A stretch of DNA of 64,000 bases. It comes from Desulfobaccales bacterium. GTDB lineage: Bacteria > Desulfobacterota > Desulfobaccia > Desulfobaccales > 0-14-0-80-60-11. The translations under genes and the position numbers were made by a program. Positions 3,087-20,532 of this stretch are shown one piece after another. Positions within the stretch are counted from its first letter, which is position 1. Every line of letters begins with the position of its first letter. The notes beneath the pieces are model-generated. The model was given only the letters and a program-made list of their open reading frames with translations. It did no database searches and was not told the DNA's origin. The stretch covers positions 6,590 to 70,589 of the forward strand of contig JBKQLU010000048.1 in the NCBI GenBank assembly GCA_052326585.1. The letters run 5' to 3'.

Positions 3087-4105
3087 AGCAACCCACGGAT
3101 GAAGAACGCCGGCTCTCCGGCGCCATGAACCGCCGGGATTTTCTGAAGCGCTTGGGGTACGCCTCGGTGGTGGCCCTGGCAGCCGGTGGCGGCGGACTGG
3201 CCCTTTATGACTCGAAAGGTCCGGCCTCTTCCGGGGCCCAGACGGTGTTGACCGGTTTGGGAGATTACAGCCTCCGGGGCAAATCTCCTGGGCCGGGGAA
3301 AATGGCCATCATCCGGGGCACTGACCGGGCGCTGATGTTCGAGCAGGGGGTGAAGGCCCTGGGAGGAATGGAGTCCTTTATCCAGAAGGGCGACCGGGTG
3401 CTCATCAAGGTCAACGCCGCCTTCGCCACGCCGCCCTCCTTAGGGGCCACCACCCACCCGGAAATACTCGCCGCGGTGGCCGGCCTCTCTATTAAGGCCG
3501 GGGCGGCCCAGGTGCTGGTTACCGATAACTCCATAAGCGATCCCGACAGTTGCTTCGAGATCAGCGGGCTGGCCGGCGCGGCTCGAACTGCCGGGGCCCG
3601 GATCATTGTCCCCCGGCCCTCCCTGTTTGCCCCCGTCAGCCTGCCAAAGGGCAAGCTTATCGAGGATTGGCCCGTTATGGCCGGGGTCTTCCAGGGAGTG
3701 ACCAAGGTCATGGTGGTGAGCCCGGTCAAGGATCACCACCGCGCCGGGGCCTCCATGATCCTGAAGAATTATTACGGATTCCTGGGCGGACGGCGCAACG
3801 TCTTTCACCAGGATATTAACGGCATCATCACCGAGCTGGCGCAACTTATGAAGCCCACTCTGTGCGTCCTGGACGGCACGGTGAGCATGATCGCCAACGG
3901 CCCCACCGGCGGTTCCCTGGCCGATTTGAAGGAGACTGGCACCATGGTGGTGTCCACCGACCCCGTGGCCGCCGATGCCGTAGGCGTGGAACTTTTGGGC
4001 CGTTCCCTGGCCGACGTGCCTTACATCCTCATGGCTGGCAAAGCCGGGGCCGGCCAGGCCGACTATCACCAGCTCAACCCGGTGCTTCTCAACGCTAGCA
4101 CTTAA
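3083..4105 (+). CDS. DUF362 domain protein with twin-arginine (Tat) signal
   Basis: 'MNRRDFLKRLGYASVVALAAGGGG' carries the Tat motif RRxFLK. 'GDRVLIKVNAAF...ATTHPEILAAV...AAQVLVTDNS' resembles the DUF362 core. The start could instead be the ATG at 3125. Confidence 0.65.
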   Translation: MKQPTDEERRLSGAMNRRDFLKRLGYASVVALAAGGGGLALYDSKGPASSGAQTVLTGLGDYSLRGKSPGPGKMAIIRGTDRALMFEQGVKALGGMESFIQKGDRVLIKVNAAFATPPSLGATTHPEILAAVAGLSIKAGAAQVLVTDNSISDPDSCFEISGLAGAARTAGARIIVPRPSLFAPVSLPKGKLIEDWPVMAGVFQGVTKVMVVSPVKDHHRAGASMILKNYYGFLGGRRNVFHQDINGIITELAQLMKPTLCVLDGTVSMIANGPTGGSLADLKETGTMVVSTDPVAADAVGVELLGRSLADVPYILMAGKAGAGQADYHQLNPVLLNAST

Positions 4106-4152
4106 GATAGTGCATACCTCATACACATATAAGGATTATAAATTAGGACAAA

Positions 4153-5373
4153 ATGACCAATCGAGTGACACTTGAGTGTGATTCATGTGGGACAAGGATA
4201 ATTACTAGGACTCAGATTGGATGGGGTGACTCCCAGATACACTCATTTCCATGTCCTGTCTGTGGCATAGGGATCACGTACAAGGTAATACTCGATCAAA
4301 AAAAAATTACTGTTAAATATGATCCCAAACCTGAGAATGCACATTGGGTCGATTCTGAAATCGGCGCTAATCATGTGGTTAATTTTAATGCTGAGTTACT
4401 AATACCTGAGTACGCAATAACGCATCCATTTTTAAGTTCATTTATTTCTGTTTGTCATCATTTCAAAAATTGGCCACATTTTCAACGTCAAGAATTGGCT
4501 AGGTTAAATTGGCGAAAAAATATTTGGCCCATTACAAAACGCTTACCAATACACTTTGAAAAAGGCAATTGGAAGTTATTTGATTCTGATGCCGCCAAAA
4601 TTGGCGAGTCAACCAAAGAAAATTCAATCATATCTCGCTTAGAGCTACTAAGGCATATTTACGATGTTCCCATCTCTTGGATGCTTTACCCTGATTTTTC
4701 TCGTCGCTCAAGAATAAGCCAGCGTATTGCTTTGGCTTCATCAATATCTGTGACTCTTATGAACCAGATTAGCTCTGATTTTAATGCATCTGGGCGTTTG
4801 AAGGAGATTTGGCGGCAACTTCAGCATTTTCATGATTCTTTCGTGAATTGCTTTCCATATTTGAGCCCTCTTCTTCAGCCAAAGATTTATTGGGGGGGAA
4901 AAGGCAATTTAGTTGACTATGTGGTCTGTGATAAACGTTTTGGTCCTTTAAAAAATTTTTATATTGAATGCTTTGAAACTTTTTGTCGTTTATCTGTAAT
5001 TGCATCATCTATTGAAGCAATTATATTCTATCAAAAATTAGAAATACCCACTAAAAAGGGTAGTCTTGATTTATGGTCCTTTGAAAAACTGCCTAATGCA
5101 AATAAGGGTAAGCATTTAATTAAATTCCCTATTGCTGACCTTTTTGTATCTTTTATGGATACCTCATTGCGTAATGGAATAGGACACAATTCCGCAAAAT
5201 ATGACTCTTCAAATGATGAAGTGGTGTGCATTCAACAATCTGGTAGTGCATTGATTGAGGAAAGAATACACTATACAATTTTTTGCGATAAAGTTTTGGA
5301 ACTCGCGTCGGTCCTTTTTCATAGTGAAGAATATTTTTTCACTTTATTAACAAATGCCGGCGGTATCTTGTAA
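4153..5373 (+). CDS. orphan zinc-ribbon protein with C-terminal HEPN-like RNxxxH motif (putative RNase toxin or defence protein)
   Basis: A 406-aa ORF fills an AT-rich insert (hand counts 23-47% G+C per 60 nt). The N-terminus has C9xxC12...C34xxC37. 'SLR340NGIGH345N' matches the HEPN Rx4-6H signature with Asn after Arg, and the motif lies in the C-terminal part of the protein (R340 of 406 aa). A weaker second match is 'R221QLQHFH227'. The ORF is clearly coding. The function is inferred. Confidence 0.7.
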   Translation: MTNRVTLECDSCGTRIITRTQIGWGDSQIHSFPCPVCGIGITYKVILDQKKITVKYDPKPENAHWVDSEIGANHVVNFNAELLIPEYAITHPFLSSFISVCHHFKNWPHFQRQELARLNWRKNIWPITKRLPIHFEKGNWKLFDSDAAKIGESTKENSIISRLELLRHIYDVPISWMLYPDFSRRSRISQRIALASSISVTLMNQISSDFNASGRLKEIWRQLQHFHDSFVNCFPYLSPLLQPKIYWGGKGNLVDYVVCDKRFGPLKNFYIECFETFCRLSVIASSIEAIIFYQKLEIPTKKGSLDLWSFEKLPNANKGKHLIKFPIADLFVSFMDTSLRNGIGHNSAKYDSSNDEVVCIQQSGSALIEERIHYTIFCDKVLELASVLFHSEEYFFTLLTNAGGIL

Positions 5374-5397
5374 GGGATATCCCATAGGCCAAAGTTC

Positions 5398-7166: not shown

Positions 7167-8408
7167 ATGAGCCGTAGAACTAAAGGAACCGACCTTACCC
7201 GCAGGCAGTTCGTGACCACCGTCGGCCTCGCCGGCCTCGCCGGCCTCGCCGTCGCAGGAGCCGGCGCCACCGGAGCGCTTGCCGCCCCGGAGCCGCCGGC
7301 TGGAGCGGCCCAGGCCGAGACCATGCCCAAACGCCAACTGGGAAAGACCGGGGTGGACGTATCTGTCCTGGCCCTGGGCGGCATGATTGACACCATCAAC
7401 AACCAACTGCTCCTCAGGCAGGCCCTGAAATTGGGCATCACCTACTGGGACACGGCCGAGTCCTACGGCAACGGCCTGGGCGAGGAAGGCTACGGCCGCT
7501 TCCTGGCCCGCAACCCGGAGGCTCGCAAGGAGATCTTCCTGGTCACCAAGCTTCACCCCACTAGCGACCTCGCCGCGCGCCTGGATAGCTCTCTGAAGAG
7601 GCTGCAAACCAACTATGTGGATGCCTTATTCGTCCCCCACGGCCTCGCGGACATCGGAGAACTGACGCCGGCTATCAAGGATTTTGCCGCGGAGATGAAG
7701 AAGGCCGGCAAGATTAAATTCTTCGGGTTCAGCAGCCACAGCAACATGGCGGACAATCTGCTGGGCGCGGCCAAACTGGGCTGGATCGATGTGGTGATGA
7801 TGACCTACAATTTCCAGTTCTTGAACGACCCCAAGATGAAAGAAGCCATCGACGCCGCGGCCAAAGCCGGTATCGGGCTGGTGGCCATGAAGTCTCAGGC
7901 CGGCAGGCCGGGGAAGCATGAAATCGGCGACAAGGTCAAGGAAGAAATGATCCAGAGCTTCCTGCAGCGGGGCTTCACCGACAAGCAGGCCAAACTCAAG
8001 GTCATATGGGAGACCCCCCAAATCGCCAGTCTCTGCTCCCAGATGCCCAACCTGACCATCCTTTCGGCCAACGTGGCCGCGGCCCGGGACCTGACCAAAC
8101 TGGCCCGGGAGGACCTGGAATCCTTGCGCCGCTATGCCCTGGAGACGAAATCAGAATACTGCGCCGGCTGCGGCAAAATCTGCCAGGAGGCCCTGGGCGG
8201 GGCCGTACCCGTAAACGAGGTCATGCGCTGCCTCATGTACTACCGGGAGTACGGCGAGCCGGAACTGGCCAAACTGACCTTTGCGGGGCTGCACCCGGAG
8301 CTGCGGCAGCGCTTGGCCGAAGTCGATTACTCCCGGGCCGAGCAAGCCTGCCCCCAGGGACTGGCCATCGGCGAGCTCATGCGCCAGGCCCGCGAATTAT
8401 TGGCTTAG
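7167..8408 (+). CDS. aldo/keto reductase with Tat signal peptide and Cys-containing C-terminal extension
   Basis: Tat motif 'TRRQFVTTVGLAGLAGLAVAG'. AKR core 'GITYWDTAESYGNGLGEEGYGRFL'. C-terminal 'CAGCGKICQE...RCLMYYREYGE'. Confidence 0.8.
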   Translation: MSRRTKGTDLTRRQFVTTVGLAGLAGLAVAGAGATGALAAPEPPAGAAQAETMPKRQLGKTGVDVSVLALGGMIDTINNQLLLRQALKLGITYWDTAESYGNGLGEEGYGRFLARNPEARKEIFLVTKLHPTSDLAARLDSSLKRLQTNYVDALFVPHGLADIGELTPAIKDFAAEMKKAGKIKFFGFSSHSNMADNLLGAAKLGWIDVVMMTYNFQFLNDPKMKEAIDAAAKAGIGLVAMKSQAGRPGKHEIGDKVKEEMIQSFLQRGFTDKQAKLKVIWETPQIASLCSQMPNLTILSANVAAARDLTKLAREDLESLRRYALETKSEYCAGCGKICQEALGGAVPVNEVMRCLMYYREYGEPELAKLTFAGLHPELRQRLAEVDYSRAEQACPQGLAIGELMRQARELLA

Positions 8409-8488: not shown

Positions 8489-8500
8489 AAAAGATGCAGA

Positions 8501-8516
8501 GTGGGCTCGAGCCCAC
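8501..8516. repeat. perfect 16-nt palindrome GTGGGCTCGAGCCCAC
   Basis: Read directly from the sequence, within the gene-free stretch 8409-8980. Confidence 0.6.
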
Positions 8517-8980
8517 CACTTTTCGAGTCAAAGGATAACCTGGGGTTGGGGGCGCCCACTCCATCTTTGCGTCTTTTGAAGGCTGAGGAGATGGCCGCTT
8601 CGGATAAAACCGGGGCGGCCATTTTCGTTCCATGGTCAGCGCCGCGTTTGACCGGGGCCGCGGCCAGACCCACCTCACCCCGCAAAATTAATCTGAGACC
8701 TAAAGTATTCGCTGGAATAAGCCGAATATCCAGCCTACGGGAGGTTCTCTTACGAACGGAGGGGAGCGCAGGCCTGGCAGCATCAGCATCTGACTGGAAT
8801 AACTACCGATTGTCGATTTCCTTTGCTTTTCAAGAAGTTAATTGGTATAGTGTATGAAATCTCAGCAGTCAGGCAGGGTAACCTGCTGACTCGCGCCTGT
8901 GAAACCGGATCTCCTTCTCGAGCTCGTGCCCCTTTAAATCACCACTGATTTCACCAAGTTCCGCAGGAGGTAATCTAACC

Positions 8981-9457
8981 ATGAAAACTCTCATTATATT
9001 TCTATGTTTGACCACCACAGCCTGGGCGCAACCGTGGCCCCAAACCCCTCCCAGGATAGGGAGGCTGGAACTGAAGCAGGAGTATTGGGACTGCATCAAG
9101 AAAGCTGCCAAGAAGTATCAAATTTCTCCGTACCTGATTCAGGCGGTATGCGCAATTGAAAGCCGCTTTAATCAAGAAGCGAGATCGTCTCATGGAAAAT
9201 GTGTTGGTCTTATGCAACTCCATGTTGGGACTGCTTCCGCATATGGAGTAGATCCATATGATCCGTATGATAATATCATGGGTGGAGCAGCGGTACTGGC
9301 CCACCTTATGCAAAAATATAACGGGGATATTCATCGGGTTTTACATGTCTATAATGCTACCTGCACCCGAGGCTATGAGCGGGAGGTTTTCCGGGCTTAT
9401 AGGCAGGCGCAGCTCGTGGAAACATCTTATTTGCCACCCGGCGGGCACAACAATTAG
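8981..9457 (+). CDS. exported lytic transglycosylase (SLT domain)
   Basis: Signal peptide 'MKTLIIFLCLTTTAWA'. 'AVCAIESRFNQEARSSHGKCVGLMQL' is the SLT catalytic-Glu motif (ES...GLMQ). SD AGGAGG lies upstream. The gene has visibly lower G+C than its flanks. Confidence 0.8.
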   Translation: MKTLIIFLCLTTTAWAQPWPQTPPRIGRLELKQEYWDCIKKAAKKYQISPYLIQAVCAIESRFNQEARSSHGKCVGLMQLHVGTASAYGVDPYDPYDNIMGGAAVLAHLMQKYNGDIHRVLHVYNATCTRGYEREVFRAYRQAQLVETSYLPPGGHNN

Positions 9458-9593
9458 ACTTGCATTCCCTTAAGGAGCGCTCCTGATCCCTCCTGGCAGC
9501 AGGAAAAAGAATGGTCGGAGGCCTTTATTGACCCGGCAGCCTGGCTGGGAGGGCATGACTTAAGCGAGGAGGCAAAGGCCAGAAGGGCGCAAT

Positions 9594-11018
9594 ATGCCAC
9601 TGCCGACCCATAAAACCAAGATCGTCGCCACCATCGGCCCGTCCTGTGAGTCTCCCGAAGTTCTGGGGAAGATAATCGCAGCCGGTATGAACGTGGCCCG
9701 GCTCAATTTTTCCCATGGCGATTTCGCCACCCACCGGCGTCTCATAGAGAACGTGCGGGCGGCGGCCGGGGCGGCGGGGCGGCGGGTGGCCATCCTGGCT
9801 GATCTCCCCGGCCCCAAGATGCGTATCGGCCAAATCTCCGGTGAGCCCATCGAGTTGAAGCCGGGGGATGCCTTTACCCTGACTACAGAGAAGATCACGG
9901 GCGACCAACGCCGCGCCGCGGTGACTTTCAGCCGCCTACCGGAGGTAGTGAAGCCCAGGGACACCCTGTTTCTGAATGACGGCCTCATTCAGCTAGAAGT
10001 TACCGATATTCATGGCAATAACTTGATTTGCCGGGTGATCGTCGGGGGCGAACTGCGCTCCAGGAAAGGCCTTAACCTTCCAGGCATCTCTTTGGGAATC
10101 AGCGCCTTCACCGACCATGACCGTGAGTGCTTGCAGCTGGCTCTGGAATGTGGGGTGGACGCGGTCAGCCAATCGTTCGTTGAGTCTGGCGAGGATGTTG
10201 CCGCGGTGCGGGAGGCCGCCCGGGCTCTCGGCCACCAGCCGTTCATCATCGCCAAGATAGAGCGCCGCAATGCCCTGAATAACCTGGACAGTATCCTCGC
10301 AGCGGCGGACGGCATCATGATTGCCCGGGGCGATCTGGGGGTGGAAGTCCCCATCGAGCAAATCGCCGGGGTGCAAAAACGACTCATGCGCCAGGCGAAC
10401 CTGCTGGGGAAACCGGTGATTACGGCCACCCAGATGTTGGAGTCCATGGTGGCCAACCCCCGGCCCACCCGGGCGGAGGCTACCGATGTAGCCAACGCCA
10501 TTTTGGATGGCACCGACTGCGTCATGCTTTCAGAAGAGTCGGCCATGGGCCAATACCCGGTAGAAGCAGTGGCCATGCTGGCCAAGATCGCGGCCGCCAT
10601 CGAACCTTTTCGGCCCGGAGAAGGGGTGAGAAAGATGCTCCGCCGGTCCGGAATGGATAGTCAAACCGGCTTCACGGATCTGATCGCCTTGAGCGTGGAT
10701 GCAACGCTGGAAAGGATCGCCCCAGCCGCGATATTCGTGCCCACCCGCAGCGGGGCTACGGCCCGGAGCCTCGCCCGTTTCCGGCCGCCGGTGTGGATCG
10801 TGGCAGTGAGTTCCCAGGAGGCCACCTGCCAGCAACTCCTCCTGACCTACGGGGTCCAGCCCGTCCACGAAGCGAACCACCCGGAGGACTGGAAAAACTA
10901 TGCGCGCCGCTATTTGCAAGCCAATGAGATGACTGGCGAAGTGGCGGTGCTGACCGAAGGCCCTTCCTCCAAGGATCCCGAGGCCAACAACCGCATGGAA
11001 CTCATTAACCTGCGATAG
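9594..11018 (+). CDS. pyk: pyruvate kinase
   Basis: 'KTKIVATIGPSCESPEVLGKIIAAGMNVARLNFSHGDF', 'MIARGDLGVEVP' and 'ATQMLESM' are canonical pyruvate kinase motifs. Confidence 0.95.
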   Translation: MPLPTHKTKIVATIGPSCESPEVLGKIIAAGMNVARLNFSHGDFATHRRLIENVRAAAGAAGRRVAILADLPGPKMRIGQISGEPIELKPGDAFTLTTEKITGDQRRAAVTFSRLPEVVKPRDTLFLNDGLIQLEVTDIHGNNLICRVIVGGELRSRKGLNLPGISLGISAFTDHDRECLQLALECGVDAVSQSFVESGEDVAAVREAARALGHQPFIIAKIERRNALNNLDSILAAADGIMIARGDLGVEVPIEQIAGVQKRLMRQANLLGKPVITATQMLESMVANPRPTRAEATDVANAILDGTDCVMLSEESAMGQYPVEAVAMLAKIAAAIEPFRPGEGVRKMLRRSGMDSQTGFTDLIALSVDATLERIAPAAIFVPTRSGATARSLARFRPPVWIVAVSSQEATCQQLLLTYGVQPVHEANHPEDWKNYARRYLQANEMTGEVAVLTEGPSSKDPEANNRMELINLR

Positions 11019-11099
11019 ATTGGCGGGGCCGGCAGGGCCCAAGGGAAGAGAGGCCGGCAACCCCGAGATTGCCAACCTCTGGTAATCCTTCCTTATTCG

Positions 11100-11137
11100 T
11101 GGTGGAGATGAGGGGACTCGGACCCCTGGCCTCCTGC
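11100..11137 (-). repeat. 38-nt duplicate of the tRNA-Ala 3' half (variable loop, T-arm, acceptor and CCA), att-like
   Basis: 'tggtggagatgaggggactcGgacccctgGcctcctgc' matches 14209-14246 at 36 of 38 positions. It has the same orientation as the intact tRNA. Confidence 0.7.
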
Positions 11138-11226
11138 CTCTCTGTGGACCCTCAGAGATTTTCGAAAAACCTGTCAAACCGTCAGAAATTTTTCCCAAGA
11201 AACGTGGTTACTGCCTGCTAGTGCCA

Positions 11227-12048
11227 CTACACGTAATTGCGGTAAATTAAGATAATCACCAACAGGTAGAGGCCTACGGACAAGGCCGTGAAGCCAAAGA
11301 TGAAATAAGCCACCCGGAACCAACGGGCCGGCGCCGGGACCATGGCTTCCTCAAGTTTTCCTTCTTCTTCCAGGCGCACAATCCACAGCGGCTTTTCCCG
11401 CCGTACCTCCTCCAACTCCACACTGCCGGCAAACATGCATTCATTCATGGGGAACATGCCGTGGCGCAGATGGCCCACGCTAAAGTGGATGATGAAGATA
11501 TAAAGCATCGCCAGCAGTGCTTCGGCCCGGTGCAGTAAGAGGGTCACATTGAGCACCCAGCCCGGCAGGAAATAGCTGGTGACCAGGGGATACATGAGCA
11601 GGAGGCCGGTGACCCCCAAAAGGGGCACCCCCCAGAAGACCGCCATGTAGTCGAACTTCTCCCAGTAAGTCCAGCGGTCAAAGGGCGGGGGCGGGCCCAG
11701 CCCGAAAAACCAGCGGATTTGCTGGCTTAGGTGGATGACATCCTGGGGCTGCGGCACCAGGGAATCCGGGTGAAAGAGGCTGTGCCGCAAGGATTTCCAC
11801 TCCACTTTCAGCAGGATATAGGCGATGTGGACCGCAAAGCCCAGGAGCATAGCCACGCCCACCCGGTAGTGGATGGTGGTGACGGACTCGTAACCGCCGA
11901 AAAAATCGGTAAGAGCTCTGCCCCAGGCAGTGGCGTAAAGCAAGCGGCAGAGACCGGTGACGGCCTGGATGAGAAAAGTGACCATGATGAACAGGTGAAA
12001 AAGCCGATGGATGACATTGAACCGGATTATGCGCACCTGGTCATTCAT
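11227..12048 (-). CDS. membrane cytochrome b (b561 / Ni-hydrogenase CytB-like) subunit
   Basis: Five or six TM helices carry conserved His residues (HRLFHLF, HYRVG, HIAYI, HRAEA, HFSVGH). The gene overlaps the upstream cytochrome c gene by 8 nt. Confidence 0.7.
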   Translation of the reverse strand: MNDQVRIIRFNVIHRLFHLFIMVTFLIQAVTGLCRLLYATAWGRALTDFFGGYESVTTIHYRVGVAMLLGFAVHIAYILLKVEWKSLRHSLFHPDSLVPQPQDVIHLSQQIRWFFGLGPPPPFDRWTYWEKFDYMAVFWGVPLLGVTGLLLMYPLVTSYFLPGWVLNVTLLLHRAEALLAMLYIFIIHFSVGHLRHGMFPMNECMFAGSVELEEVRREKPLWIVRLEEEGKLEEAMVPAPARWFRVAYFIFGFTALSVGLYLLVIILIYRNYV

Positions 12049-12751
12049 CTTCGGACTTTCTCTTTTTCTCGGTGTAGACGTGGTAAAGCTCCTTGCTCAC
12101 CCATACTACGGTGTGCGCCCCAAAGAAGGCCAAGGTGCCGACAATCAGGAGATGCATGAACCAGTCGGAGTAAAACAGGGAGGCGAAAGTCTTTCGGGTT
12201 TCCAAAGCCCCGGGGTCGGGTTCATGGACCACGTAAGTGGCAAAGGAGGCGCTGGCACCCTCGTGGCACTTGGAGCACACGTAAGCGTAGCGCCGGACGG
12301 GGTTCAGAGGGGAGAAGTAATGGGCGATGGAGGCAATGGGCTCACCGCCGTGGCACTGGCGGCAGGTAAGGTTGCCCCGGGTAGTGTGGATGCTCTTGGC
12401 CTCCTCCGCGTGGCAGGCTACACAGGCCTGGACATTGTAAAACAGGACGGCCCGATGGGAATCGGCCAGGTAAGTGTGGGGGATTGATGGGACCTGAGGG
12501 CTATAAGCGAAGGGGGGCCGGACCACCCCGGGGCCGCCCAAAAAAGAGCTAAAAGGATAGGGCTTGACTTCGGAGTCTTCGTAATACCCGGTCGAGGCCT
12601 CCTGGTCTTTGTATCGCCTCAACGAGGTGGTCACTTCCTCTTGGGCCGGGGCCACCACGGGTAATACCAGCAGGAGTCCCAGCCCTCCCAGTACCATCCA
12701 CAGGATGCTTCGCCTGAGAATCCGCCGCGACCTCATTGAGCTTCCCTTCAT
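12041..12751 (-). CDS. trihaem cytochrome c with C-terminal membrane anchor
   Basis: Signal peptide, three CxxCH motifs (CVACH, CRQCH, CSKCH) and a C-terminal TM segment 'FMHLLIVGTLAFFGAHTVVWV'. ATGA overlap with the upstream gene. Confidence 0.8.
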   Translation of the reverse strand: MKGSSMRSRRILRRSILWMVLGGLGLLLVLPVVAPAQEEVTTSLRRYKDQEASTGYYEDSEVKPYPFSSFLGGPGVVRPPFAYSPQVPSIPHTYLADSHRAVLFYNVQACVACHAEEAKSIHTTRGNLTCRQCHGGEPIASIAHYFSPLNPVRRYAYVCSKCHEGASASFATYVVHEPDPGALETRKTFASLFYSDWFMHLLIVGTLAFFGAHTVVWVSKELYHVYTEKKRKSEDE

Positions 12752-14079
12752 TTTTTCGGCGATTCTTTGGCGGCTTTCGGTTTCTCAGGCGTCACAGGCG
12801 TCGCTACCGGAGCCTCCACCTCGGGGATCGCCATCTTCACGGGTTGGCCCACCGGCACCGGCAGCTTAACCAGGGCATCCCAGGCAGCTGCCAAGTAGTC
12901 GAGACTCTCTCCCCGGTAAATGTGACAGCCCTCGCAGGAATTGGGGATGGCCGGGTTGGCTATGGAATCCTTGGGCAGCAGACAGGCGAAGGTATGGCTG
13001 TGCATATCCCCGGATTCGGCGCTGGTGACAATCCTGGGCATGTGGCAACCCACGCAGTTGCCGAAGGAGTGAATGGAATGGCCCATGTTTCTGTTGATGA
13101 TATCATGACAGGTGAGGCACTGCTTGGAGCCGGCCTGGATAGTTTGGGACCGGGTGGGGGGCATGCCGATCTGGTGCACGAAGTGGCAGGAGGTACAGGT
13201 CACCCCTTCTTTATAGTGCATAGATTGCTTCCAATCCAGATATTGCTGATGGTGGCCTTCGGTAAACTCCTTGGCATAGACGTCCTTCACGTCGCCGGCG
13301 GCAATGGTGGGCTCCTTGAAGAAAGGTCCGATGGCCTTGCCGGGCTGGTAGCCCACCGGCCAGTCAGCCCCCTTCACCAGGGTGGATTCGCCCCGGGTAT
13401 GGCAGGAGCCGCAGATCTGCACCGCTACCCCCATGGTAAGCTTGGACGGGTTGATGATGGTCTGGCGCTTCTCGAAGACCGCGGTCTTGGGCAGGGCCGC
13501 GTGCCAGGAACCCGGGCCGTGACAGGCTTCGCAGCCAACCCCGGGCTCGACAAAGGTGTTTTTCTCGATATTTACCCCGGTGGCGTGGCAGCCGCCGCAT
13601 TTGATGATCCAGGGTTTCTTATCCCAATCGGGGTCCCCTTCAGCATAAGGCATCCAGCGGTGGCTCTCAATATTATACTCGATGGGGGTAATGTATAGTT
13701 TCCCAGCCTTTTCCACCAGGTAGCGTTGTTTCCACTGGCTGCCCTGGGTATACTTGATATCGTCCTCTTTGGGGATGTAGACTTGGTCAACCGGTATTTT
13801 GAGCTTTGCTTTAGCCAAATCGGCGCGAATTACTTTTTCATCGATGGGGGCGACAATGGCGTCCCGGTTCGTTTGGGCGTCCTGGGTGGCGCGGGAATGA
13901 AGGGTCATCTTCCAGGAGTCGTAGTGCTCCAGGTGGCAGAGCTTGCAGGTATCCGAACCCACGTAGGTCTTGGGCTGTTTTTTCAGAGCCTCCACGTCGA
14001 GGGGCCTCTCGCCGCAGCCCGCCAGGGCCAGAAGCCCCAGCCCCGCCAGGAAAAATCTCGCCGGACCGTAACCGTTCAT
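12748..14079 (-). CDS. octahaem cytochrome c lipoprotein
   Basis: Lipobox 'LLALAGC'. Eight CxxCH motifs: CKLCH, CGGCH, CEACH, CGSCH, CTSCH, CLTCH, CVGCH, CEGCH. SD GGGAGGG precedes the ATG at 14079. Confidence 0.85.
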   Translation of the reverse strand: MNGYGPARFFLAGLGLLALAGCGERPLDVEALKKQPKTYVGSDTCKLCHLEHYDSWKMTLHSRATQDAQTNRDAIVAPIDEKVIRADLAKAKLKIPVDQVYIPKEDDIKYTQGSQWKQRYLVEKAGKLYITPIEYNIESHRWMPYAEGDPDWDKKPWIIKCGGCHATGVNIEKNTFVEPGVGCEACHGPGSWHAALPKTAVFEKRQTIINPSKLTMGVAVQICGSCHTRGESTLVKGADWPVGYQPGKAIGPFFKEPTIAAGDVKDVYAKEFTEGHHQQYLDWKQSMHYKEGVTCTSCHFVHQIGMPPTRSQTIQAGSKQCLTCHDIINRNMGHSIHSFGNCVGCHMPRIVTSAESGDMHSHTFACLLPKDSIANPAIPNSCEGCHIYRGESLDYLAAAWDALVKLPVPVGQPVKMAIPEVEAPVATPVTPEKPKAAKESPKK

Positions 14080-14208
14080 GCCGCCCTCCCGGGTGCGCGT
14101 GGATATTGAATTTGGCCAAGGGACAAGATCGCGGGGACCGCGGCGTCTGGTACTCCTGTTCTCCTCGGGTTCGGGAAGTTTAGTTTATTATATATAATAA
14201 AATATTAG

Positions 14209-14284
14209 TGGTGGAGATGAGGGGACTCGAACCCCTGACCTCCTGCATGCGAAGCAGGCGCTCTTCCAGCTGAGCTACATCCCC
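14209..14284 (-). tRNA. tRNA-Ala (anticodon CGC), CCA-encoded
   Basis: Reverse complement: GGGGATGTAGCTCAGCTGGAAGAGCGCCTGCTTCGCATGCAGGAGGTCAGGGGTTCGAGTCCCCTCATCTCCACCA. It folds as a 76-nt cloverleaf with the G3:U70 Ala identity pair and anticodon loop TTCGCAT. Confidence 0.95.
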
Positions 14285-14470
14285 ACGTGCCGCGATTATT
14301 TCGGCTCCAGGAGCCCTATAAAGCACAAACGCCGCTTCGCCCCGGAGCGCGCCGAACCATGCACGGGCTTTCCCCCAGTCTCGCCGCCTGCCTGGAGCAT
14401 CGAGCCGATGGCCCGGGGGAACTGGACCGATCGCCGGGCCAACCCGGGGTTGGCTGGCAGGGGCGCGGCC

Positions 14471-15696: not shown

Positions 15697-17595
15697 ATGA
15701 TGGCCGATAACCCCCAAGCCAGCTCTCCGGCCCGCTATCTCATCTGGTACTTGCTGGCCGTAATCTTGATTTTGCTGGTTTTTCAAATTTATGGCGGCGT
15801 CAAACCGGCTACCCAGATCAGCTACAGCGAATTTCGCCGTTTGCTGGAAACCAAGGGAATCGACGACCTGACCATCTACCCCGGGAGCATCACCGGCGAG
15901 CTCCTGCCGGCCGGCGTCGAGCAACTGACCAAAGAGCGGAAAGAACCGGACCTGCCTAAAAAGTTGGCTCAATTGCCCGATAACAAGGAACCTAACTTCA
16001 CCGTGGACCGGGTGGAGGATAAGGACCTGGTGCCGCTTCTGGAAAAGCAAGGGATCAAGTACAGCGCCGCGCCGGATAGGACCGCGATCAACAACCTCCT
16101 CTCCTGGGGACTGCCGATTTTGCTGCTGGTAGGCATCTGGATCTATTTCTTCCGCAGGGTCGGCGCCAGTACCGGCGGCCTGATGACGGTGGGCAAAAGC
16201 CGGGCCCGGGTTTACGCCCAGGATGAGACCAAGGTCACCTTCCAGGATGTGGCCGGGGTGGATGAGGCCATTGAGGAACTCAAAGAGATCATCGAATTCC
16301 TGAAAAATCCCGCCAAGTTTCAGATGCTGGGGGGCAAGATCCCCAAAGGGGTGCTGCTGGTAGGACCGCCGGGAACCGGCAAGACCCTGTTGGCCCGGGC
16401 CGTAGCCGGAGAGGCCGGGGTGCCTTTCCTGAGCCTGACCGGCTCCGACTTCGTGGAGATGTTCGTGGGGGTGGGAGCGGCCCGGGTGCGGGACCTGTTC
16501 GCCACCGCCCAGGAGAAGGCCCCTTGCATCATCTTCATCGATGAACTGGACGCCGTGGGCAAGGCCCGGGGGGTGAGCCCCATGGGCGGTCCCGAAGAAC
16601 GGGAAAATACCCTGAACCAGCTCCTCTCGGAGATGGACGGCTTTGACACCCGCAAAGGCGTGATCATTATGGCGGCCACCAACCGCCCGGAGATCCTGGA
16701 CCCGGCCCTGATCCGTCCGGGGCGCTTCGACCGGCACATCCTGGTGGACCGGCCCTCCCTCCCGGGCCGGGAAGAAATCTTGCGGATTCATTCCCGGCAG
16801 ATCAAGCTCTCCGACAAGGTCGACCTCAAGACCCTGGCGGCCCGCACCCCCGGGATGGTGGGCTCGGACCTGGCCAACATCGTTAACGAAGCGGCCCTCC
16901 TGGCAGCCCGGAAGAATAAAGAGGCGGTGGAGATGGACGATTTCGAGGAGGCCATCGACCGGGTGGTGGCTGGCCTGGAAAAACGCAACCGGGTCATGAA
17001 CCCCCGGGAGAAGGAGATCGTCGCCTACCATGAAACTGGCCACGCCCTGGTGGCCGAGGCCCTGCCCACCGCCGACAAGGTGCACCGGGTCTCCATCATC
17101 CCCCGGGGCATCGGCGCCCTGGGCTACACCATGCAGTTGCCCACCGAGGACCGCTATCTGATGACCAAGACTGAACTGGAAGACCGCATGGCGGTTATGC
17201 TGGGAGGCCGGGCGGCCGAGGAGCTGGTCTTTCAGGAGATTTCCACCGGGGCCCAAAGTGATCTCTACCGGGCCACCGATATTGCCCGTTCCATGGTGCG
17301 GGAGTACGGCATGAGCGAGAAGCTGGGCCCCATCACCTTCGAGCGGGAGCGGCGGCCCCTGTTCCTGGACGGTATCATGCCGACCTCCGGCAAAGATTAT
17401 AGCGAAGCCACGGCCCAGGAGATCGATCAAGAGGTGGCGGACCTGATGGCCCTGGCCCACCGGCGGGCCAGGGAGGTCCTGGAGGCACAGCGGCCCACCC
17501 TGGAGAAGGTTGGCAAGATTCTCCTGGAAAGGGAGGTGCTGGAGGGCGAGGAGCTGCGGCAGATCTTAAATTCCATCACGCCGCCGCAACCCTAA
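15697..17595 (+). CDS. ftsH: ATP-dependent zinc metalloprotease FtsH (paralog 1)
   Basis: Walker A 'GPPGTGKT', Walker B 'IIFIDELD', SRH '[20 protein letters not shown]' and zinc site 'HETGHAL'. The ATG at 15697 follows GAGGT. Confidence 0.95.
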
Positions 17596-17814
17596 CCAAA
17601 AATTTTGCATCGGTTATGGTGGGCCCGGGCATTCTCCCCGGCCAGCCAAAACGGCGGGCCCAGCCTCCCCTATGAGCCCTGGAGTGAGGGGGTTTTCTAG
17701 GGCGGCCTATGGCCGCCGATTATCCGGGCTACTGCGTCACCCATAATTTTGCCGGCCCTGGGATTGGCCGTTAATCTCTTCAGCGTAATTAGGATGCCCG
17801 GCGGTTCGCAATCT

Positions 17815-20532
17815 ATGCCGTTCTTCCCCTCTGCTGCAGCCTTACAAGATTATCTCCTGGCCGAGGCCGGCCCCGGGACCCTGGTGTTGGTCCCGCAGCA
17901 ACGGCTGGCGCAGCAGTTGTGGCAGCGGGAACGCCGCGCCCAGCTTGAGTCCGGCGCCGCGGCCTGGGAGCCTTTGCCCCTGAAGACCTTCCAGGGCTGG
18001 TTGCCAGACCTCTTCCAGGCCCTCTGGCCGGAGGTGGCGCTAGCTCCTGATGTGCGGCGCCTGTCCCTGTGGCTCCGAGCCATCGCGGCGGCACCGGGCC
18101 TGGAGGGGACCGCCGCCGACCTTTCCTGGACTCAGGCCCTGGATGAGGCCTACGAGCTTCTGGCTCGCCACGCCCTGGTAGGTGGAGGCGCCCGCGCGGC
18201 CAGGTCTGCGCCATCGGCTGGGGCGCGGGATGAGGCGCCTCTGTTTGCCTGGCGCGGCCGGGTTATCCAGATCTTTAGCCAGATCCTGGCGGAGGGCGGC
18301 TGGTTGGCGCCGGCAGATTTGCCGGCCTTCCTCCTGGCCCGCTTGCAGGAAGGAAAGATCACCCTGCCGGGGAGGATCATGGTGGTGGGCCTGGAGAATC
18401 CGGCCCCGGCGGAGGACGCCTTCCTGACCGCCGTGGCCCGGCGCACCCGGGTAGAACACCTGCAGGTGCGGGGCCATCCCCAAGCGGTGCAACGGGCGGT
18501 GCTGCTCCCCGACCGGGGCCAGGAGCTGGCCTGGGTGGGCTCCCGGTTGGCGGAGCTGGCCGCCCGGGACGGCGTTCCCTTGCACCGGCTGGCGGTAACC
18601 TCCCCGGATCTGAATCACTATCTCCCCCAGTTAGCGCGGCTGCTCCCCGAGTTGCTGGGGCCGGCGCAGACCTCCGCCGGCTTTGCCTACAACATCTCCC
18701 AGGGGCCGCGCCTGGCGCAAACCCCCCTCTTTCTGGCCGCCACCCTGCCCTTGCGGTTCGTCTCCGCCGGGGAAGGCCGGGAAGATCTGATGTCCCTCCT
18801 GCTGTCGCCCTTTTACCGCGAACTCCGCCGCTACCGGGACCAGACCGCAGCTTGGGACCGTCTTTTCCGCGAACGGCGCCTGGACCAGGGCTGGTTCTAT
18901 TTTAAGGCAGCCATCACCGCTTCCGGTAAGGAGGCGCCTATACTGGCCCGGCTGGACCGCCTCTGGGCCAGCCTTAAGGCCCCCGGCGCCGGCCAGGAGT
19001 GGCGGCGGCGCCTGGATGAGGTCTGGCAAGGGCTGGGATTCGCCCCTGGGGCTGAGTTCGAGGCGGCGCAGTGGAAGGGCCTCGATTCCCTGCTCAAGGA
19101 GACGGCCGCCACCCTGGCCTCCCAACCCTTGGCGGCCGGGGAGTTCCTGGGCTGGCTGGAGCACGGGGCGAAACAGGTATTACTGCCGGGACCCGGAATT
19201 CAGGGGGCCGGCATTCAGGTCCTGGGCCTCCTGGAGATGCGCGGCCTGGAGTTTTCCCGGGTCTTTTGCCTGGGGATGAACTCCGGGACCTTCCCGCCGC
19301 CGCCCCGGTCCCTGCCCCTGCTCACCGCCGCGGAACGGCGCGCCGTCCTGGGCGGCACTTACCGGAGCCAGCACGAATTTTCCCGGGGGCTCTACGATAA
19401 CCTGCTGGGCGCCGCTCCGCACCTGATCCTTACCCGGCCCGGAGTGGTCGAAGACGAGGAGCGGCCCGGCAGCCCACTCTACCTGGGCCGCTGGGAATCG
19501 CAAGACATGCCGGTATTGAGCTCCCTCGATCCGGCCTGGCTGCGCAGTCCGGCCATCCGGGCCGCTTTTGGCGGCGCCTGGGCTCCCTTTGCCGGCCACC
19601 GCGACGGCCCGCTGTCCATCAATCTCCCCGACCGGCTCTCCGTGGGAAAGGCCGCCGCGGCGCTGAGCTGTCGGTGCCGCTTCCTGCTGGAGGGCATCCT
19701 GAGGCTCCAGGAACTGCCGGAGATAGAAGCGGGCCTGCCTCCCCGGGAGCGGGGCGAGCGGCTCCACCAGGTCCTGGCCCGATTCGTCAAAGAATTTAAG
19801 GAAATTCTGCAGGAACATGACTGGAACCACGACCAAGCCGAGAAGGTATTGGACCGCGCGGCGCGCCGGACGCTGGGAGACCTCTTACGAGACCCCCACT
19901 GGCAGGCAGAGCTTATGCGCTGGCTGGGCGCAGATGAAGGCGGCGCGGGCCTGCTCCGGGAATGGCTCCTCCGGGAGCGGGAGCGCTACCAGCAGGGTTG
20001 GCGCTGGCAATTCACGGAAGAGGGTTTCAGCGGGCTGAAAGATGAGGGCTGGCCCTTTGCCCTAACCGGCCGCCTGGACCGCCTGGACTACCACCCGGGG
20101 ACGCAGGAGGCCGTTATCTGGGACTATAAGAGCGGCAAGCTCCCCACCGCCAAAGAGGTGTTCGATGAGCTGCTGGAGTTCCAGTTACCCTGCTACCTGC
20201 TGGCGGTGGAGCGCGGCCTGACCGCGGCTCCCCGGGAGCGCCGGGGACTCCGGGCCGGGTTCATCGGACTCAAAAGCCTGCGACAGGGCCACCTGAAACA
20301 TGAGGATTTCCCCAGCCGGGCCCAAGACTGGCCCCGGGTGGCGGCGGCCCTGGCGGCCAGCCTGAAAGACCTGGGGGCCCACCTGGCGGCGGGAGATTTC
20401 AGCCCCCAACCCCAACCCGCCCCGGCCCCGGCGGGCAAAGAATTGGCGGCCTGTAAGTATTGCCCGTACGACCTGCTCTGTGGTTATACCGGCGCTCCCG
20501 CCCCGCCGGGTGAAGAGGAGTCGGAATCATAA
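17815..20532 (+). CDS. AddB-like PD-(D/E)XK nuclease subunit (no Walker A, Fe-S Cys cluster)
   Basis: C-terminal 'GRLDRLDYH...VIWDYKSGK' is a RecB-type nuclease motif, and 'CKYCPYDLLC' is the Cx2Cx5C Fe-S ligand set. The gene lies directly upstream of an AddA-like helicase. The start is uncertain (17749, 17794 or 17815). Confidence 0.75.
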   Translation: MPFFPSAAALQDYLLAEAGPGTLVLVPQQRLAQQLWQRERRAQLESGAAAWEPLPLKTFQGWLPDLFQALWPEVALAPDVRRLSLWLRAIAAAPGLEGTAADLSWTQALDEAYELLARHALVGGGARAARSAPSAGARDEAPLFAWRGRVIQIFSQILAEGGWLAPADLPAFLLARLQEGKITLPGRIMVVGLENPAPAEDAFLTAVARRTRVEHLQVRGHPQAVQRAVLLPDRGQELAWVGSRLAELAARDGVPLHRLAVTSPDLNHYLPQLARLLPELLGPAQTSAGFAYNISQGPRLAQTPLFLAATLPLRFVSAGEGREDLMSLLLSPFYRELRRYRDQTAAWDRLFRERRLDQGWFYFKAAITASGKEAPILARLDRLWASLKAPGAGQEWRRRLDEVWQGLGFAPGAEFEAAQWKGLDSLLKETAATLASQPLAAGEFLGWLEHGAKQVLLPGPGIQGAGIQVLGLLEMRGLEFSRVFCLGMNSGTFPPPPRSLPLLTAAERRAVLGGTYRSQHEFSRGLYDNLLGAAPHLILTRPGVVEDEERPGSPLYLGRWESQDMPVLSSLDPAWLRSPAIRAAFGGAWAPFAGHRDGPLSINLPDRLSVGKAAAALSCRCRFLLEGILRLQELPEIEAGLPPRERGERLHQVLARFVKEFKEILQEHDWNHDQAEKVLDRAARRTLGDLLRDPHWQAELMRWLGADEGGAGLLREWLLRERERYQQGWRWQFTEEGFSGLKDEGWPFALTGRLDRLDYHPGTQEAVIWDYKSGKLPTAKEVFDELLEFQLPCYLLAVERGLTAAPRERRGLRAGFIGLKSLRQGHLKHEDFPSRAQDWPRVAAALAASLKDLGAHLAAGDFSPQPQPAPAPAGKELAACKYCPYDLLCGYTGAPAPPGEEESES

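What the first reader, a model, noticed from the sequence alone, without database searches (positions are those of the whole stretch)
11100..14284. Intact tRNA-Ala(CGC) and a 38-nt copy of its 3' half bracket a 3-kb cytochrome b / trihaem / octahaem operon (att-like geometry, no integrase)
Positions 11100-11137 repeat 14209-14246 at 36 of 38 positions, in the same orientation. The repeated segment covers the tRNA variable loop, T-arm, acceptor strand and CCA.

The copy lies on the 3' side of the tRNA. This is the arrangement left by elements that integrate into tRNA 3' ends: attL reconstitutes the tRNA and attR is the displaced 3' fragment.

The bracketed segment holds only three translationally coupled genes: an octahaem cytochrome c lipoprotein, a membrane-anchored trihaem cytochrome c and a cytochrome b. 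An extremely AT-rich junction next to the tRNA (14181-14208, 'tagtttattatatataataaaatattag') completes it.

This suggests a respiratory or extracellular electron-transfer module acquired on an integrative element that has since lost its integrase. The two mismatches argue for an old event.
Basis: partly seen in the sequence, partly recalled or inferred. Interest (0 to 1): 0.6.

Follow-up and report, generated by a model that had tools for sequence, protein, structure and literature searches.

The report
Cytochrome operon inserted at tRNA-Ala hotspot
A three-gene respiratory cytochrome operon was inserted into the 3' end of a tRNA-Ala gene in a Desulfobaccales bacterium, at a site where related genomes carry other islands with integrases; this is a clean but ordinary integrase-less genomic-island remnant.

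Summary
tRNA-Ala(CGC) lies at 14209-14284 (-). A same-orientation copy of its last 38 nt lies at 11100-11137, matching at 36 of 38 positions, with none expected by chance.

The insertion reading is supported by comparison with related Desulfobaccales contigs.
- Relatives share AddA-AddB-FtsH-SIMPL-NifU-tRNA-Ala at 87-90% nucleotide identity. The homology stops exactly at the tRNA 3' end.
- In one relative (L185) the intact tRNA is followed directly by the 47-nt trailer and terminator hairpin that in the window follows the displaced fragment. L185 is therefore an empty site.
- Other relatives carry different islands at this tRNA. Some have an intact P4-type tyrosine integrase about 180 nt after the tRNA, and others have that integrase cut to about 83 codons.

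The octahaem-trihaem-cytochrome b cassette occurs in about 85 other loci, never beside tRNA-Ala. The window copy lacks sequence at both edges that the relatives share.

The AT-rich 'junction' is the cassette's own conserved upstream box. Composition and synonymous divergence point to a donor within the same clade. The two mismatches need not mean the event is old.

No integrase homologue exists in the 64 kb. Whether one was ever on board is inferred, not shown. This is a new member of a known kind.

The parts
14209..14284 (-). Intact tRNA-Ala(CGC). It is the integration target, now regenerated as attL.
   Evidence: ARAGORN and Rfam at 69.8 bits. It is conserved, with NifU-SIMPL-FtsH-AddBA synteny, in relatives L179-L185.
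14209..14246 (-). attL identity block, covering tRNA positions 39-76. The repeat finder extends it to 14203.
   Evidence: Homology to all relatives on the NifU side ends at 14208/14209.
14295..14322 (-). Promoter-like site upstream of the tRNA (TTTATA-16-AATAAT). It could read through into the cassette.
   Evidence: Consensus scan only. No terminator-like site lies between the tRNA and the octahaem gene.
14080..14208 (-). Retained part of the cassette's upstream region (leader plus AT-rich box). Relatives share at least 100 further upstream nt that the window lacks.
   Evidence: 91.6-93% identity to L095-L100, reaching 14197-14207. Alignment A1 shows relatives sharing upstream sequence absent here.
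14184..14201 (.). Perfect 18-nt palindrome TTTATTATATATAATAAA inside the AT-rich box. It belongs to the cassette's conserved upstream element, not to the junction.
   Evidence: Self reverse-complement match. The TGTATATATAAA box is conserved upstream of the cassette in relatives.
12748..14079 (-). Octahaem cytochrome c lipoprotein (443 aa).
   Evidence: 8 CxxCH motifs. Pfam multihaem families. Best solved relative is OcwA, 6I5B, E = 5.8e-17. Homologues at 65-92% identity occur in about 85 loci.
12041..12751 (-). Trihaem cytochrome c with N- and C-terminal hydrophobic segments (236 aa).
   Evidence: 3 CxxCH motifs. His213, inside the C-terminal hydrophobic segment, is invariant in 57 distinct homologues.
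11227..12048 (-). Membrane cytochrome b (273 aa).
   Evidence: PF01292 at E = 2e-6, below the cut-off. Weak matches to the formate dehydrogenase gamma subunit. His18, 60, 74, 173, 188 and 193 are invariant.
11211..11226 (-). Last 16 nt of cassette homology after the cytochrome b stop codon. Relatives share a further 25-100 nt that the window lacks.
11138..11210 (-). 73-nt orphan segment between the cassette and the tRNA fragment. It is either the element's right arm or the donor's own downstream sequence.
   Evidence: No match in any fetched locus, in the rest of the window or in viral contigs.
11100..11137 (-). Displaced 38-nt copy of the tRNA-Ala 3' end (attR), carrying U47C and U55C. The repeat finder extends it to 11094.
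   Evidence: It is identical in nine population contigs.
11051..11099 (-). Original tRNA-Ala trailer with its terminator hairpin, now separated from the tRNA by the insertion.
   Evidence: Homologous to the sequence directly after the intact tRNA in L185. In L185 the hairpin is followed by TTTTTCATTTT.

Best explanation
A 3.1-kb piece of DNA was inserted into the 3' half of the chromosomal tRNA-Ala(CGC) gene by a single reciprocal crossover of the kind catalysed by tyrosine integrases.

The inserted DNA consisted of three parts:
- a copy of the last 38 nt of tRNA-Ala;
- the octahaem-trihaem-cytochrome b operon with about 128 nt of its upstream region;
- 73 further nt.

The incoming tRNA end regenerated the gene (attL, 14209-14246). 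The other copy of the tRNA 3' end, together with the native trailer and terminator, was pushed 3.1 kb away (attR, 11100-11137, followed by 11051-11099).

This tRNA is a hotspot in the lineage. Sister genomes carry other islands there, with a P4-type integrase next to the tRNA. The window element has no integrase, so it is now an integrase-less island remnant of the CIME (cis-mobilizable element) type.

The cargo most likely encodes a bc-type menaquinol:cytochrome c oxidoreductase, analogous to CbcBA, that feeds a periplasmic octahaem lipoprotein.

Shown: the repeat, the empty site, the hotspot with integrases, and the truncated, relocated cassette.

Inferred: integrase catalysis, former presence of an integrase on the element, and the biochemical role of the cargo.
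For: Repeat geometry:
- A 36/38 direct repeat covers tRNA positions 39-76, with none expected by chance.

Empty site:
- L185 aligns its tRNA 3' half plus the next 47 nt to window 11137-11051 at 89.7% identity, E = 1e-26. The flank alone gives 91.7% over 48 nt. The alignment is shown.

Breakpoint:
- Seven related contigs are 87-90% identical to the window from AddA to the tRNA. All lose homology at 14208/14209.

Hotspot:
- L179-L181 have a 408-aa integrase (Arm-DNA-bind_3, Phage_int_M and Phage_integrase domains; PRK09692 at E = 2e-86) about 180 nt after the tRNA, followed by a type I-E CRISPR-Cas island.
- L183 and L184 share only the first ~544 nt of that region with L179, up to about codon 83 of the integrase gene, and then carry other cargo.
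- L185 has no island at all.

Cassette is a relocated unit:
- About 85 loci carry the same three genes in the same order. None lies next to tRNA-Ala or to any window flank gene.
- The nearest copies match only window 11211 to 14197-14207, at 91.6-93% identity.
- Relatives share extra sequence on both sides that the window lacks.

Literature:
- The signature of a regenerated tDNA plus a displaced fragment defines tDNA-integrated islands (PMC4383910).
- Integrase-less att-flanked remnants are called CIMEs (PMC5704250).
- They are also reported for respiratory islands at ssrA in Dehalococcoides (PMC3146451).

Cargo:
- 8 and 3 haem motifs, an invariant His in the trihaem C-terminal hydrophobic segment, and six invariant His in the cytochrome b.
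- This parallels the CbcBA architecture (10.1101/2021.04.15.440034).
- The octahaem protein is related to OcwA.
Against: - No integrase homologue or remnant exists anywhere in the 64 kb (tblastn E > 0.2).
- The attL-side arm differs from the island arm shared by L179-L184, so this is not a simple deletion derivative of those islands.
- On the tRNA side the cassette's own upstream sequence abuts the CCA end within about 0-12 nt, leaving no room for element-specific DNA. If an integrase gene was once there, a deletion ending exactly at the att core is needed.
- The anticodon-loop bases next to the fragment do not match, so the crossover point cannot be placed.
- attR ends of the relatives' islands lay outside the fetched DNA, so the natural size of the att site at this hotspot is unknown.
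- Composition and dS give no independent sign of foreign origin.
Confidence: 0.72

Rival explanations
1. The element never carried an integrase. A small circular DNA holding the cassette and a tRNA-Ala 3' half integrated in one of two ways: through an integrase supplied in trans by a co-resident island that uses the same hotspot, or through RecA-dependent Campbell-type recombination across the 38-44 nt of homology.
For: - No integrase remnant is present.
- Cassette sequence abuts the tRNA end directly.
- The whole insert is only 3109 nt.
- Both the attL copy and the fragment carry G57, whereas relatives have A57. This fits a donor att copy from the same lineage.
- Integrases that use this tRNA circulate in the clade.
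Against: - No circular form or second copy of the unit has been seen.
- In the about 85 other loci the cassette is not flanked by tRNA fragments, so there is no sign of it travelling as an att-flanked unit.
- To my knowledge, 38 nt is short for efficient RecA-dependent recombination.
Confidence: 0.2
2. The cassette was acquired from a phylogenetically distant donor, as a foreign respiratory module.
For: - It differs in location from every relative.
- Its GC content is slightly lower than the window average: 0.577 against about 0.61.
Against: - The tetranucleotide distance is z = +1.24, inside the range of core segments.
- The nearest copies are 92-93% identical in nucleotides.
- dS to those copies is 0.10-0.18. 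This equals the range of FtsH, SIMPL, NifU and AddB against the nearest Desulfobaccales relatives, 0.10-0.27.
- The best protein hits are annotated as Desulfobaccales or Deltaproteobacteria.
Confidence: 0.05
3. The 38-mer is not an att site. It is a chance or dispersed tRNA-derived repeat, or the stump of a second, tandem tRNA-Ala gene that decayed.
For: The same T-arm and acceptor sequence occurs in other tRNA-Ala isoacceptors and in a tmRNA in unrelated viral contigs.
Against: - There are only two copies in the 64 kb, with none expected by chance.
- The fragment includes the anticodon-stem strand and variable loop of this particular tRNA.
- It is followed by the very trailer that follows the intact tRNA in L185.
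- No 5'-half remnant lies beside it.
Confidence: 0.03

Closest known systems
tDNA-integrated genomic islands as defined by Islander (Hudson, Lau and Williams 2015, PMC4383910), with sublocation classes described by Williams 2002 and summarised in 10.1101/2020.11.02.365908
   Same: - A regenerated tRNA gene is paired with a same-orientation displaced fragment of its 3' end, and the two mark the ends of the insert.
- The identity block runs to the CCA end.
- Alternative islands occupy the same tRNA in sister strains.
- The hotspot is served by tyrosine integrases.
   Different: - The island encodes no integrase, so Islander's integrase filter would reject it.
- At 3.1 kb it is only just above Islander's 2-kb lower limit.
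- Its cargo is a single operon whose own upstream region touches the att core.
CIMEs (cis-mobilizable elements): decayed ICEs or IMEs that keep attL and attR but have lost their integration and transfer genes (PMC5704250)
   Same: The insert is flanked by both att copies, has no integrase and no transfer genes, and sits at a site where integrase-bearing elements arrive.
   Different: - Descent from an ICE or IME is not shown.
- No accretion partner lies beside it.
- Whether the att sites still recombine is unknown, and attR carries two substitutions.
Dehalococcoides ssrA genomic islands carrying reductive dehalogenase (respiration) operons (McMurdie et al. 2011, PMC3146451)
   Same: - Respiratory operons are moved by site-specific integration into the 3' end of a small stable RNA gene, leaving a direct repeat.
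- Fifteen of those islands also lack an integration module and were proposed to be cis-mobilizable.
   Different: - The target there is tmRNA, with a 20-bp repeat and a serine recombinase (DsiB).
- Here the target is tRNA-Ala, with a 38-nt repeat, and the neighbouring lineages use tyrosine integrases.
- Those islands are low-GC and codon-biased, whereas this cassette is compositionally native.
Geobacter CbcBA bc-type inner-membrane quinol oxidoreductase (Joshi et al. 2021, 10.1101/2021.04.15.440034)
   Same: - A membrane b-type cytochrome is encoded next to a multihaem c-type cytochrome that has a C-terminal membrane anchor containing a conserved histidine.
- In relatives the cluster sits near sigma-54-type response regulators (L098) and porin-cytochrome genes (L090).
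   Different: - The anchored c subunit has three haems, not seven.
- An extra octahaem lipoprotein is encoded first in the operon.
- Sequence homology to CbcA and CbcB was not tested.
- The window copy has lost its upstream regulatory neighbourhood.

Membership tests
tDNA-integrated genomic island (Islander criteria) | An intact tDNA plus a fragment of its 3' part, in the same orientation on the same replicon | tested here: met
   36 of 38 positions match, in direct orientation, 3109 nt apart.
tDNA-integrated genomic island (Islander criteria) | A tyrosine integrase gene encoded between the tDNA and the fragment | tested here: not met
   Only three cytochrome genes lie between the repeats. tblastn with three integrases finds nothing in the 64 kb.
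tDNA-integrated genomic island (Islander criteria) | An unoccupied site, or alternative islands, at the same tDNA in related genomes | tested here: met
   L185 is an empty site with a matching trailer. L179-L184 carry other islands at the same tRNA.
tDNA-integrated genomic island (Islander criteria) | The fragment does not overlap a conserved coding domain, and the length is 2-200 kb | tested here: met
   The fragment is intergenic, between pyk and the cytochrome b gene. The length is 3.1 kb.
CIME (cis-mobilizable element) | Retains attL and attR but lacks integration and transfer genes | tested here: met
CIME (cis-mobilizable element) | Derived by decay of an ICE or IME, and still mobilisable in cis after accretion | not testable with these tools
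   No remnant genes are present. Integrase decay is seen at the same site in L183 and L184, but not in this element. Recombination competence needs an experiment.
Islands of the L179 type at this hotspot (P4-type integrase) | The shared left arm directly after the tRNA CCA end (CCATTAAATCCAATATC...) | tested here: not met
   The window reads CTAATATTTTATT... at that position. blastn finds no similarity beyond the tRNA.
CbcBA-like bc-type quinol oxidoreductase | A b-type cytochrome membrane subunit with conserved haem-ligand histidines | tested here: inconclusive
   PF01292 scores 28 bits, below the 30.1 cut-off. Six invariant His are present. Ligand roles are not shown.
CbcBA-like bc-type quinol oxidoreductase | A multihaem c subunit anchored by a C-terminal helix that carries a conserved histidine | tested here: met
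   The trihaem protein has a hydrophobic segment at 198-219, and His213 is invariant in 57 homologues.
CbcBA-like bc-type quinol oxidoreductase | Sequence homology to Geobacter CbcA and CbcB, and a role in low-potential extracellular electron transfer | not tested
   Geobacter sequences were not compared. Function needs genetics or biochemistry.

The most novel reading that the evidence does not exclude
The 3.1-kb unit is not a dead remnant. It is a minimal att-flanked respiratory 'mini-cassette' that moves in trans, using the P4-type integrases of the larger islands that compete for the same tRNA-Ala hotspot.

Insertion also places the operon between the tRNA promoter and the tRNA's own displaced terminator. 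The operon would then be expressed by read-through instead of by its lost native regulatory region.
Probability: 0.1. Interest if true: 0.6.

Novelty: new member of a known kind. Interest (0 to 1): 0.3.

Why it matters
This is a well-resolved example, in an uncultivated Desulfobaccales lineage, of a whole membrane electron-transfer module being relocated by tRNA-targeted integration. An empty site and alternative occupants of the same hotspot are both available for comparison.

- It shows that multihaem respiratory modules can move as single-operon units within a clade. This bears on how extracellular or periplasmic electron-transfer capacity spreads among sulfate-reducer relatives.
- Pipelines that require an integrase between the tDNA and its fragment would miss such cases.
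- The mechanism itself is textbook, so the value is as a documented case rather than as a new principle.

Tried and rejected
- **Synteny through pyk.** The genome-collection scan gave only 63-68% identical pyk genes, with no shared neighbours and no tRNA. Closer pyk relatives (88-90% amino-acid identity) share only the pyk gene itself, window 9580-11036. The NifU/SIMPL side gave the answer instead.
- **tRNA genes or fragments beside the cassette in 85 other loci.** None was adjacent. Two loci have a tRNA-Arg 5-7 kb away, and the one examined (L098) has no integrase among its neighbouring genes.
- **Composition.** Tetranucleotide distance and GC do not single out the cassette. The strongest outliers in the window are the low-GC stretch at 2.5-7 kb and the high-GC AddAB region.
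- **Synonymous divergence.** The cassette against its nearest copies falls in the same range as core genes against their nearest relatives. There is no incongruence.
- **The 73-nt orphan segment and the attL junction.** Neither matches anything in any fetched locus, the rest of the window or viral contigs.
- **tRNA-Ala 3' end in viral contigs.** There were seven hits, all in complete tRNA-Ala or tmRNA genes and none an attP-like fragment.
- **Integrase remnants.** tblastn with the L179, L183 and L176 recombinases against the window found nothing.
- **RNA elements.** Rfam finds only the tRNA, plus sub-threshold tRNA-like hits on the fragment. An RNAalifold run on 74 upstream regions gave no consensus structure.
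- **Tandem tRNA duplication or a retro-type origin for the fragment.** I considered both and rejected them. The orientation and the L185 trailer match fit only an insertion that carried its own tRNA 3' half.


Full report
**1. The observation**

The window holds one tRNA gene, tRNA-Ala(CGC), at 14209-14284 on the minus strand (Rfam 69.8 bits). Its last 38 nt (14209-14246 on the plus strand) recur in direct orientation at 11100-11137 with two mismatches. These are the only two matches in the 64 kb at up to three mismatches, and none occurred in 100 shuffles. The repeat finder extends the pair to 44 nt at 93% identity, 3109 nt apart.

In tRNA numbering the block covers positions 39-76: the 3' strand of the anticodon stem, the variable loop, the T arm, the acceptor strand and CCA. 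The mismatches are U47C and U55C. No similarity to the 5' half of the tRNA lies beside the fragment. The fragment is identical in nine contigs of the same population (99.2-100% identity) from independent assemblies.

**2. What lies between the repeats**

Three overlapping minus-strand genes lie between the repeats.
- An octahaem cytochrome c lipoprotein at 12748-14079, with 8 CxxCH motifs and an LAGC lipobox.
- A trihaem cytochrome c at 12041-12751, with N- and C-terminal hydrophobic segments.
- A cytochrome b of the PF01292 type at 11227-12048.

The flanking genes are pyk (9594-11018, +) on one side and NifU-like, SIMPL, FtsH and AddB/AddA on the other. The best database names place the organism in Desulfobaccales.

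**3. The cassette elsewhere**

The octahaem protein has many homologues at 65-92% identity. In about 85 fetched loci the same three genes occur in the same order. None of these loci lies beside tRNA-Ala, and none shares a window flank gene.

The closest copies (L095-L100, labelled as JGI metagenome contigs) match the window at 91.6-93% nucleotide identity, but only over 11211 to 14197-14207. Among themselves, the relatives share at least 100 further nt upstream and 25-100 nt downstream that the window lacks. The window copy is therefore a segment cut out of a longer conserved context.

In several relatives the cassette neighbours a MtrB/PioB-type porin-cytochrome cluster (L090; shared with L097, L103 and L107). 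In others it neighbours two-component or sigma-54 regulators (L092; L098).

**4. The decisive comparison**

The pyk side gave nothing. Genome-collection hits were only 63-68% identical and not syntenic. Closer pyk relatives (about 90% nucleotide identity) share only the pyk gene itself, window 9580-11036.

The other side was informative. Seven contigs with SIMPL at 83-87% identity keep AddA-AddB-FtsH-SIMPL-NifU at 87-90% nucleotide identity. In the six that contain the whole tRNA-Ala(CGC) gene, homology to the window ends at 14208/14209, the 3' end of the tRNA. The seventh, L182, ends inside the tRNA gene.

What follows the tRNA differs between relatives.
- In L179, L180 and L181 a 408-aa tyrosine integrase starts about 180 nt after the tRNA. 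It has Arm-DNA-bind_3, Phage_int_M and Phage_integrase domains and matches PRK09692 at E = 2e-86. A type I-E CRISPR-Cas island follows it.
- In L183 and L184 the same left arm and the first ~83 codons of the integrase remain, followed by ROS/MucR and polysaccharide genes.
- In L185 there is no integrase. The tRNA is followed directly by TGAATTAGGAATGATTACCAGAGGTTGGCAATCGGGGTTGCCGGCC and a T-run. This is the sequence that follows the displaced fragment in the window (CGAATAAGGAAGGATTACCAGAGGTTGGCAATCTCGGGGTTGCCGGCC).

The L185 alignment covers 87 nt at 89.7% identity, E = 1e-26, and the flank alone gives 91.7% over 48 nt. L185 is thus an unoccupied site. Window 11051-11099 is the original tRNA trailer with its terminator hairpin.

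**5. Interpretation**

The data fit the standard signature of integration into a tDNA. The incoming DNA carries a copy of the tRNA 3' part that regenerates the gene, and the other copy of that part marks the far end of the insert (PMC4383910). The site is a hotspot used by tyrosine-integrase islands in sister lineages, and integrase decay is directly visible there in L183 and L184.

The window element has no integrase. tblastn with three recombinases finds nothing in the 64 kb. It therefore corresponds to an integrase-less, att-flanked remnant: a CIME in the terminology of PMC5704250. Such remnants were also proposed for respiratory islands at ssrA in Dehalococcoides (PMC3146451).

**6. What remains uncertain**

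- The attL-side arm (CTAATATTTTATT...) differs from the arm shared by L179-L184, so the window element is not a simple derivative of those islands.
- The cassette's own upstream sequence reaches to within about 0-12 nt of the CCA end. No element-specific DNA survives on that side. If an integrase gene once lay there, a deletion ending at the att core is required. Alternatively the unit never had one, and integrated using an integrase supplied in trans or by homologous recombination over the 38-44 nt.
- The 73 nt between the cassette and the fragment (11138-11210) match nothing. They may be the element's right arm or the donor's own downstream sequence.
- The crossover point cannot be placed. 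The anticodon-loop bases beside the fragment do not match, so the crossover lay within positions 39-76 (sublocation concept from 10.1101/2020.11.02.365908).
- If the crossover lay 3' of position 55, the two substitutions could have been present in the element's att copy. In that case they say nothing about age.

**7.

- The AT-rich stretch is not a junction feature. A TGTATATATAAA box sits at the same distance upstream of the cassette in relatives that have no tRNA nearby. In the window it forms a perfect 18-nt palindrome at 14184-14201.
- The cassette is not compositionally foreign. Its tetranucleotide distance is z = +1.24 and its GC is 0.577, against about 0.61 for the window.
- Its synonymous divergence from the nearest copies is 0.10-0.18. 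That equals the range for FtsH, SIMPL, NifU and AddB against the nearest relatives, 0.10-0.27. The donor was therefore the same clade, or the event was a relocation within the genome.
- The insertion post-dates the split from the L185 lineage (about 88% identity) and pre-dates the diversification of the sampled population (at least 99.2% identity).

**8. Function of the cargo (inferred)**

- The octahaem protein's best solved relative is OcwA of Thermincola potens (6I5B, E = 5.8e-17). OcwA is a nonahaem terminal reductase whose fold resembles nitrogen- and sulfur-cycle multihaem enzymes (10.1101/641308).
- The trihaem protein has an invariant His213 inside its C-terminal hydrophobic segment. 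The cytochrome b has six invariant histidines.
- This matches the logic described for Geobacter CbcBA, in which a b-type membrane subunit works with a c-type cytochrome whose C-terminal helix supplies a haem ligand (10.1101/2021.04.15.440034).
- I therefore read the cassette as a bc-type menaquinol:cytochrome c oxidoreductase that passes electrons to a periplasmic octahaem lipoprotein. The neighbours in relatives suggest a further path towards an outer-membrane conduit.
- dN/dS of 0.28-0.45 for the octahaem and cytochrome b genes, and intact reading frames in every population contig that covers them, argue that the genes are kept in use.
- No terminator-like site lies between the tRNA and the octahaem gene, and the tRNA's own terminator now follows the cassette. 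Read-through from the tRNA promoter-like site at 14322-14295 is possible but untested.

**9. Verdict**

The thing itself is a known kind: a tRNA-integrated island remnant without an integrase. It is notable only for being reduced to a single respiratory operon and for how cleanly the comparative evidence resolves it. Interest is modest.

Noticed in passing
window 4098-5396 (ORF 4153-5373, +): A 1.3-kb low-GC stretch (GC 0.37-0.43) holds one 406-aa ORF with no Pfam or PADLOC match. It is present in the window and in L081 but absent from population contigs L082 and L085, so it is a presence/absence polymorphism within the population.
   Followed up: partly
window 9580-11036; L175, L176: In the closest pyk relatives (about 90% nucleotide identity), homology covers only the pyk gene, ending 10-18 nt past its stop codon, and both flanks differ. 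In L176 a XerC/D-like tyrosine recombinase (378 aa) lies directly upstream of pyk. Only about 14 nt separate the pyk block from the native tRNA trailer in the window, so this stretch is a mosaic of short blocks.
   Followed up: partly
L179 11239-20647; L180; L183 11248-20732; L184: The same tRNA-Ala(CGC) in sister lineages carries a type I-E CRISPR-Cas island behind an intact integrase (L179, L180). In L183 and L184 it carries a ROS/MucR plus polysaccharide-export island behind an integrase cut to about 83 codons.
   Followed up: partly
window 11227-14079 compared with 9594-11018, in L084 and L086: Within the population, the cassette carries 22 differing codons in each of these two contigs (27 synonymous and 13 nonsynonymous in total). 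The adjacent pyk gene carries 0-1. This may reflect recombination with related cassette copies or chimeric metagenome assembly.
   Followed up: partly
L090 6747-11772; L103; L107; L097: In several relatives the cassette lies next to a MtrB/PioB-type porin gene with multihaem cytochrome genes. This suggests a link to an outer-membrane electron conduit. No such cluster adjoins the cassette in the window.
   Followed up: partly
window 7167-8408; L092 211-1443: An aldo/keto reductase with a twin-arginine-like N terminus lies 3 kb from the cassette in the window. It has a 68% identical homologue 4 kb from the cassette in L092, in a different arrangement. This may be a functional link or a coincidence.
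   Followed up: no
window 12041-12751: The trihaem subunit evolves much faster than its partners. Against L095, L096 and L099 its dN/dS is 0.75-1.0, compared with about 0.3-0.45 for the octahaem and cytochrome b genes.
   Followed up: no
window 17000-17926; L081: Population contig L081 is nearly identical to the window up to about 17 kb. It then shows 38 SNPs in 17.0-17.6 kb, a break in alignment at 17622-17763, and 92% identity beyond. This is a variable segment between FtsH and the AddB-like gene.
   Followed up: no
window 8500-9500: The SLT lytic transglycosylase gene (8981-9457) sits in a locally low-GC stretch (0.50-0.52). A 35-nt piece of it (9056-9090) matches island DNA in L183 and L184 at 91% identity. 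This may be another trace of mobile DNA.
   Followed up: no
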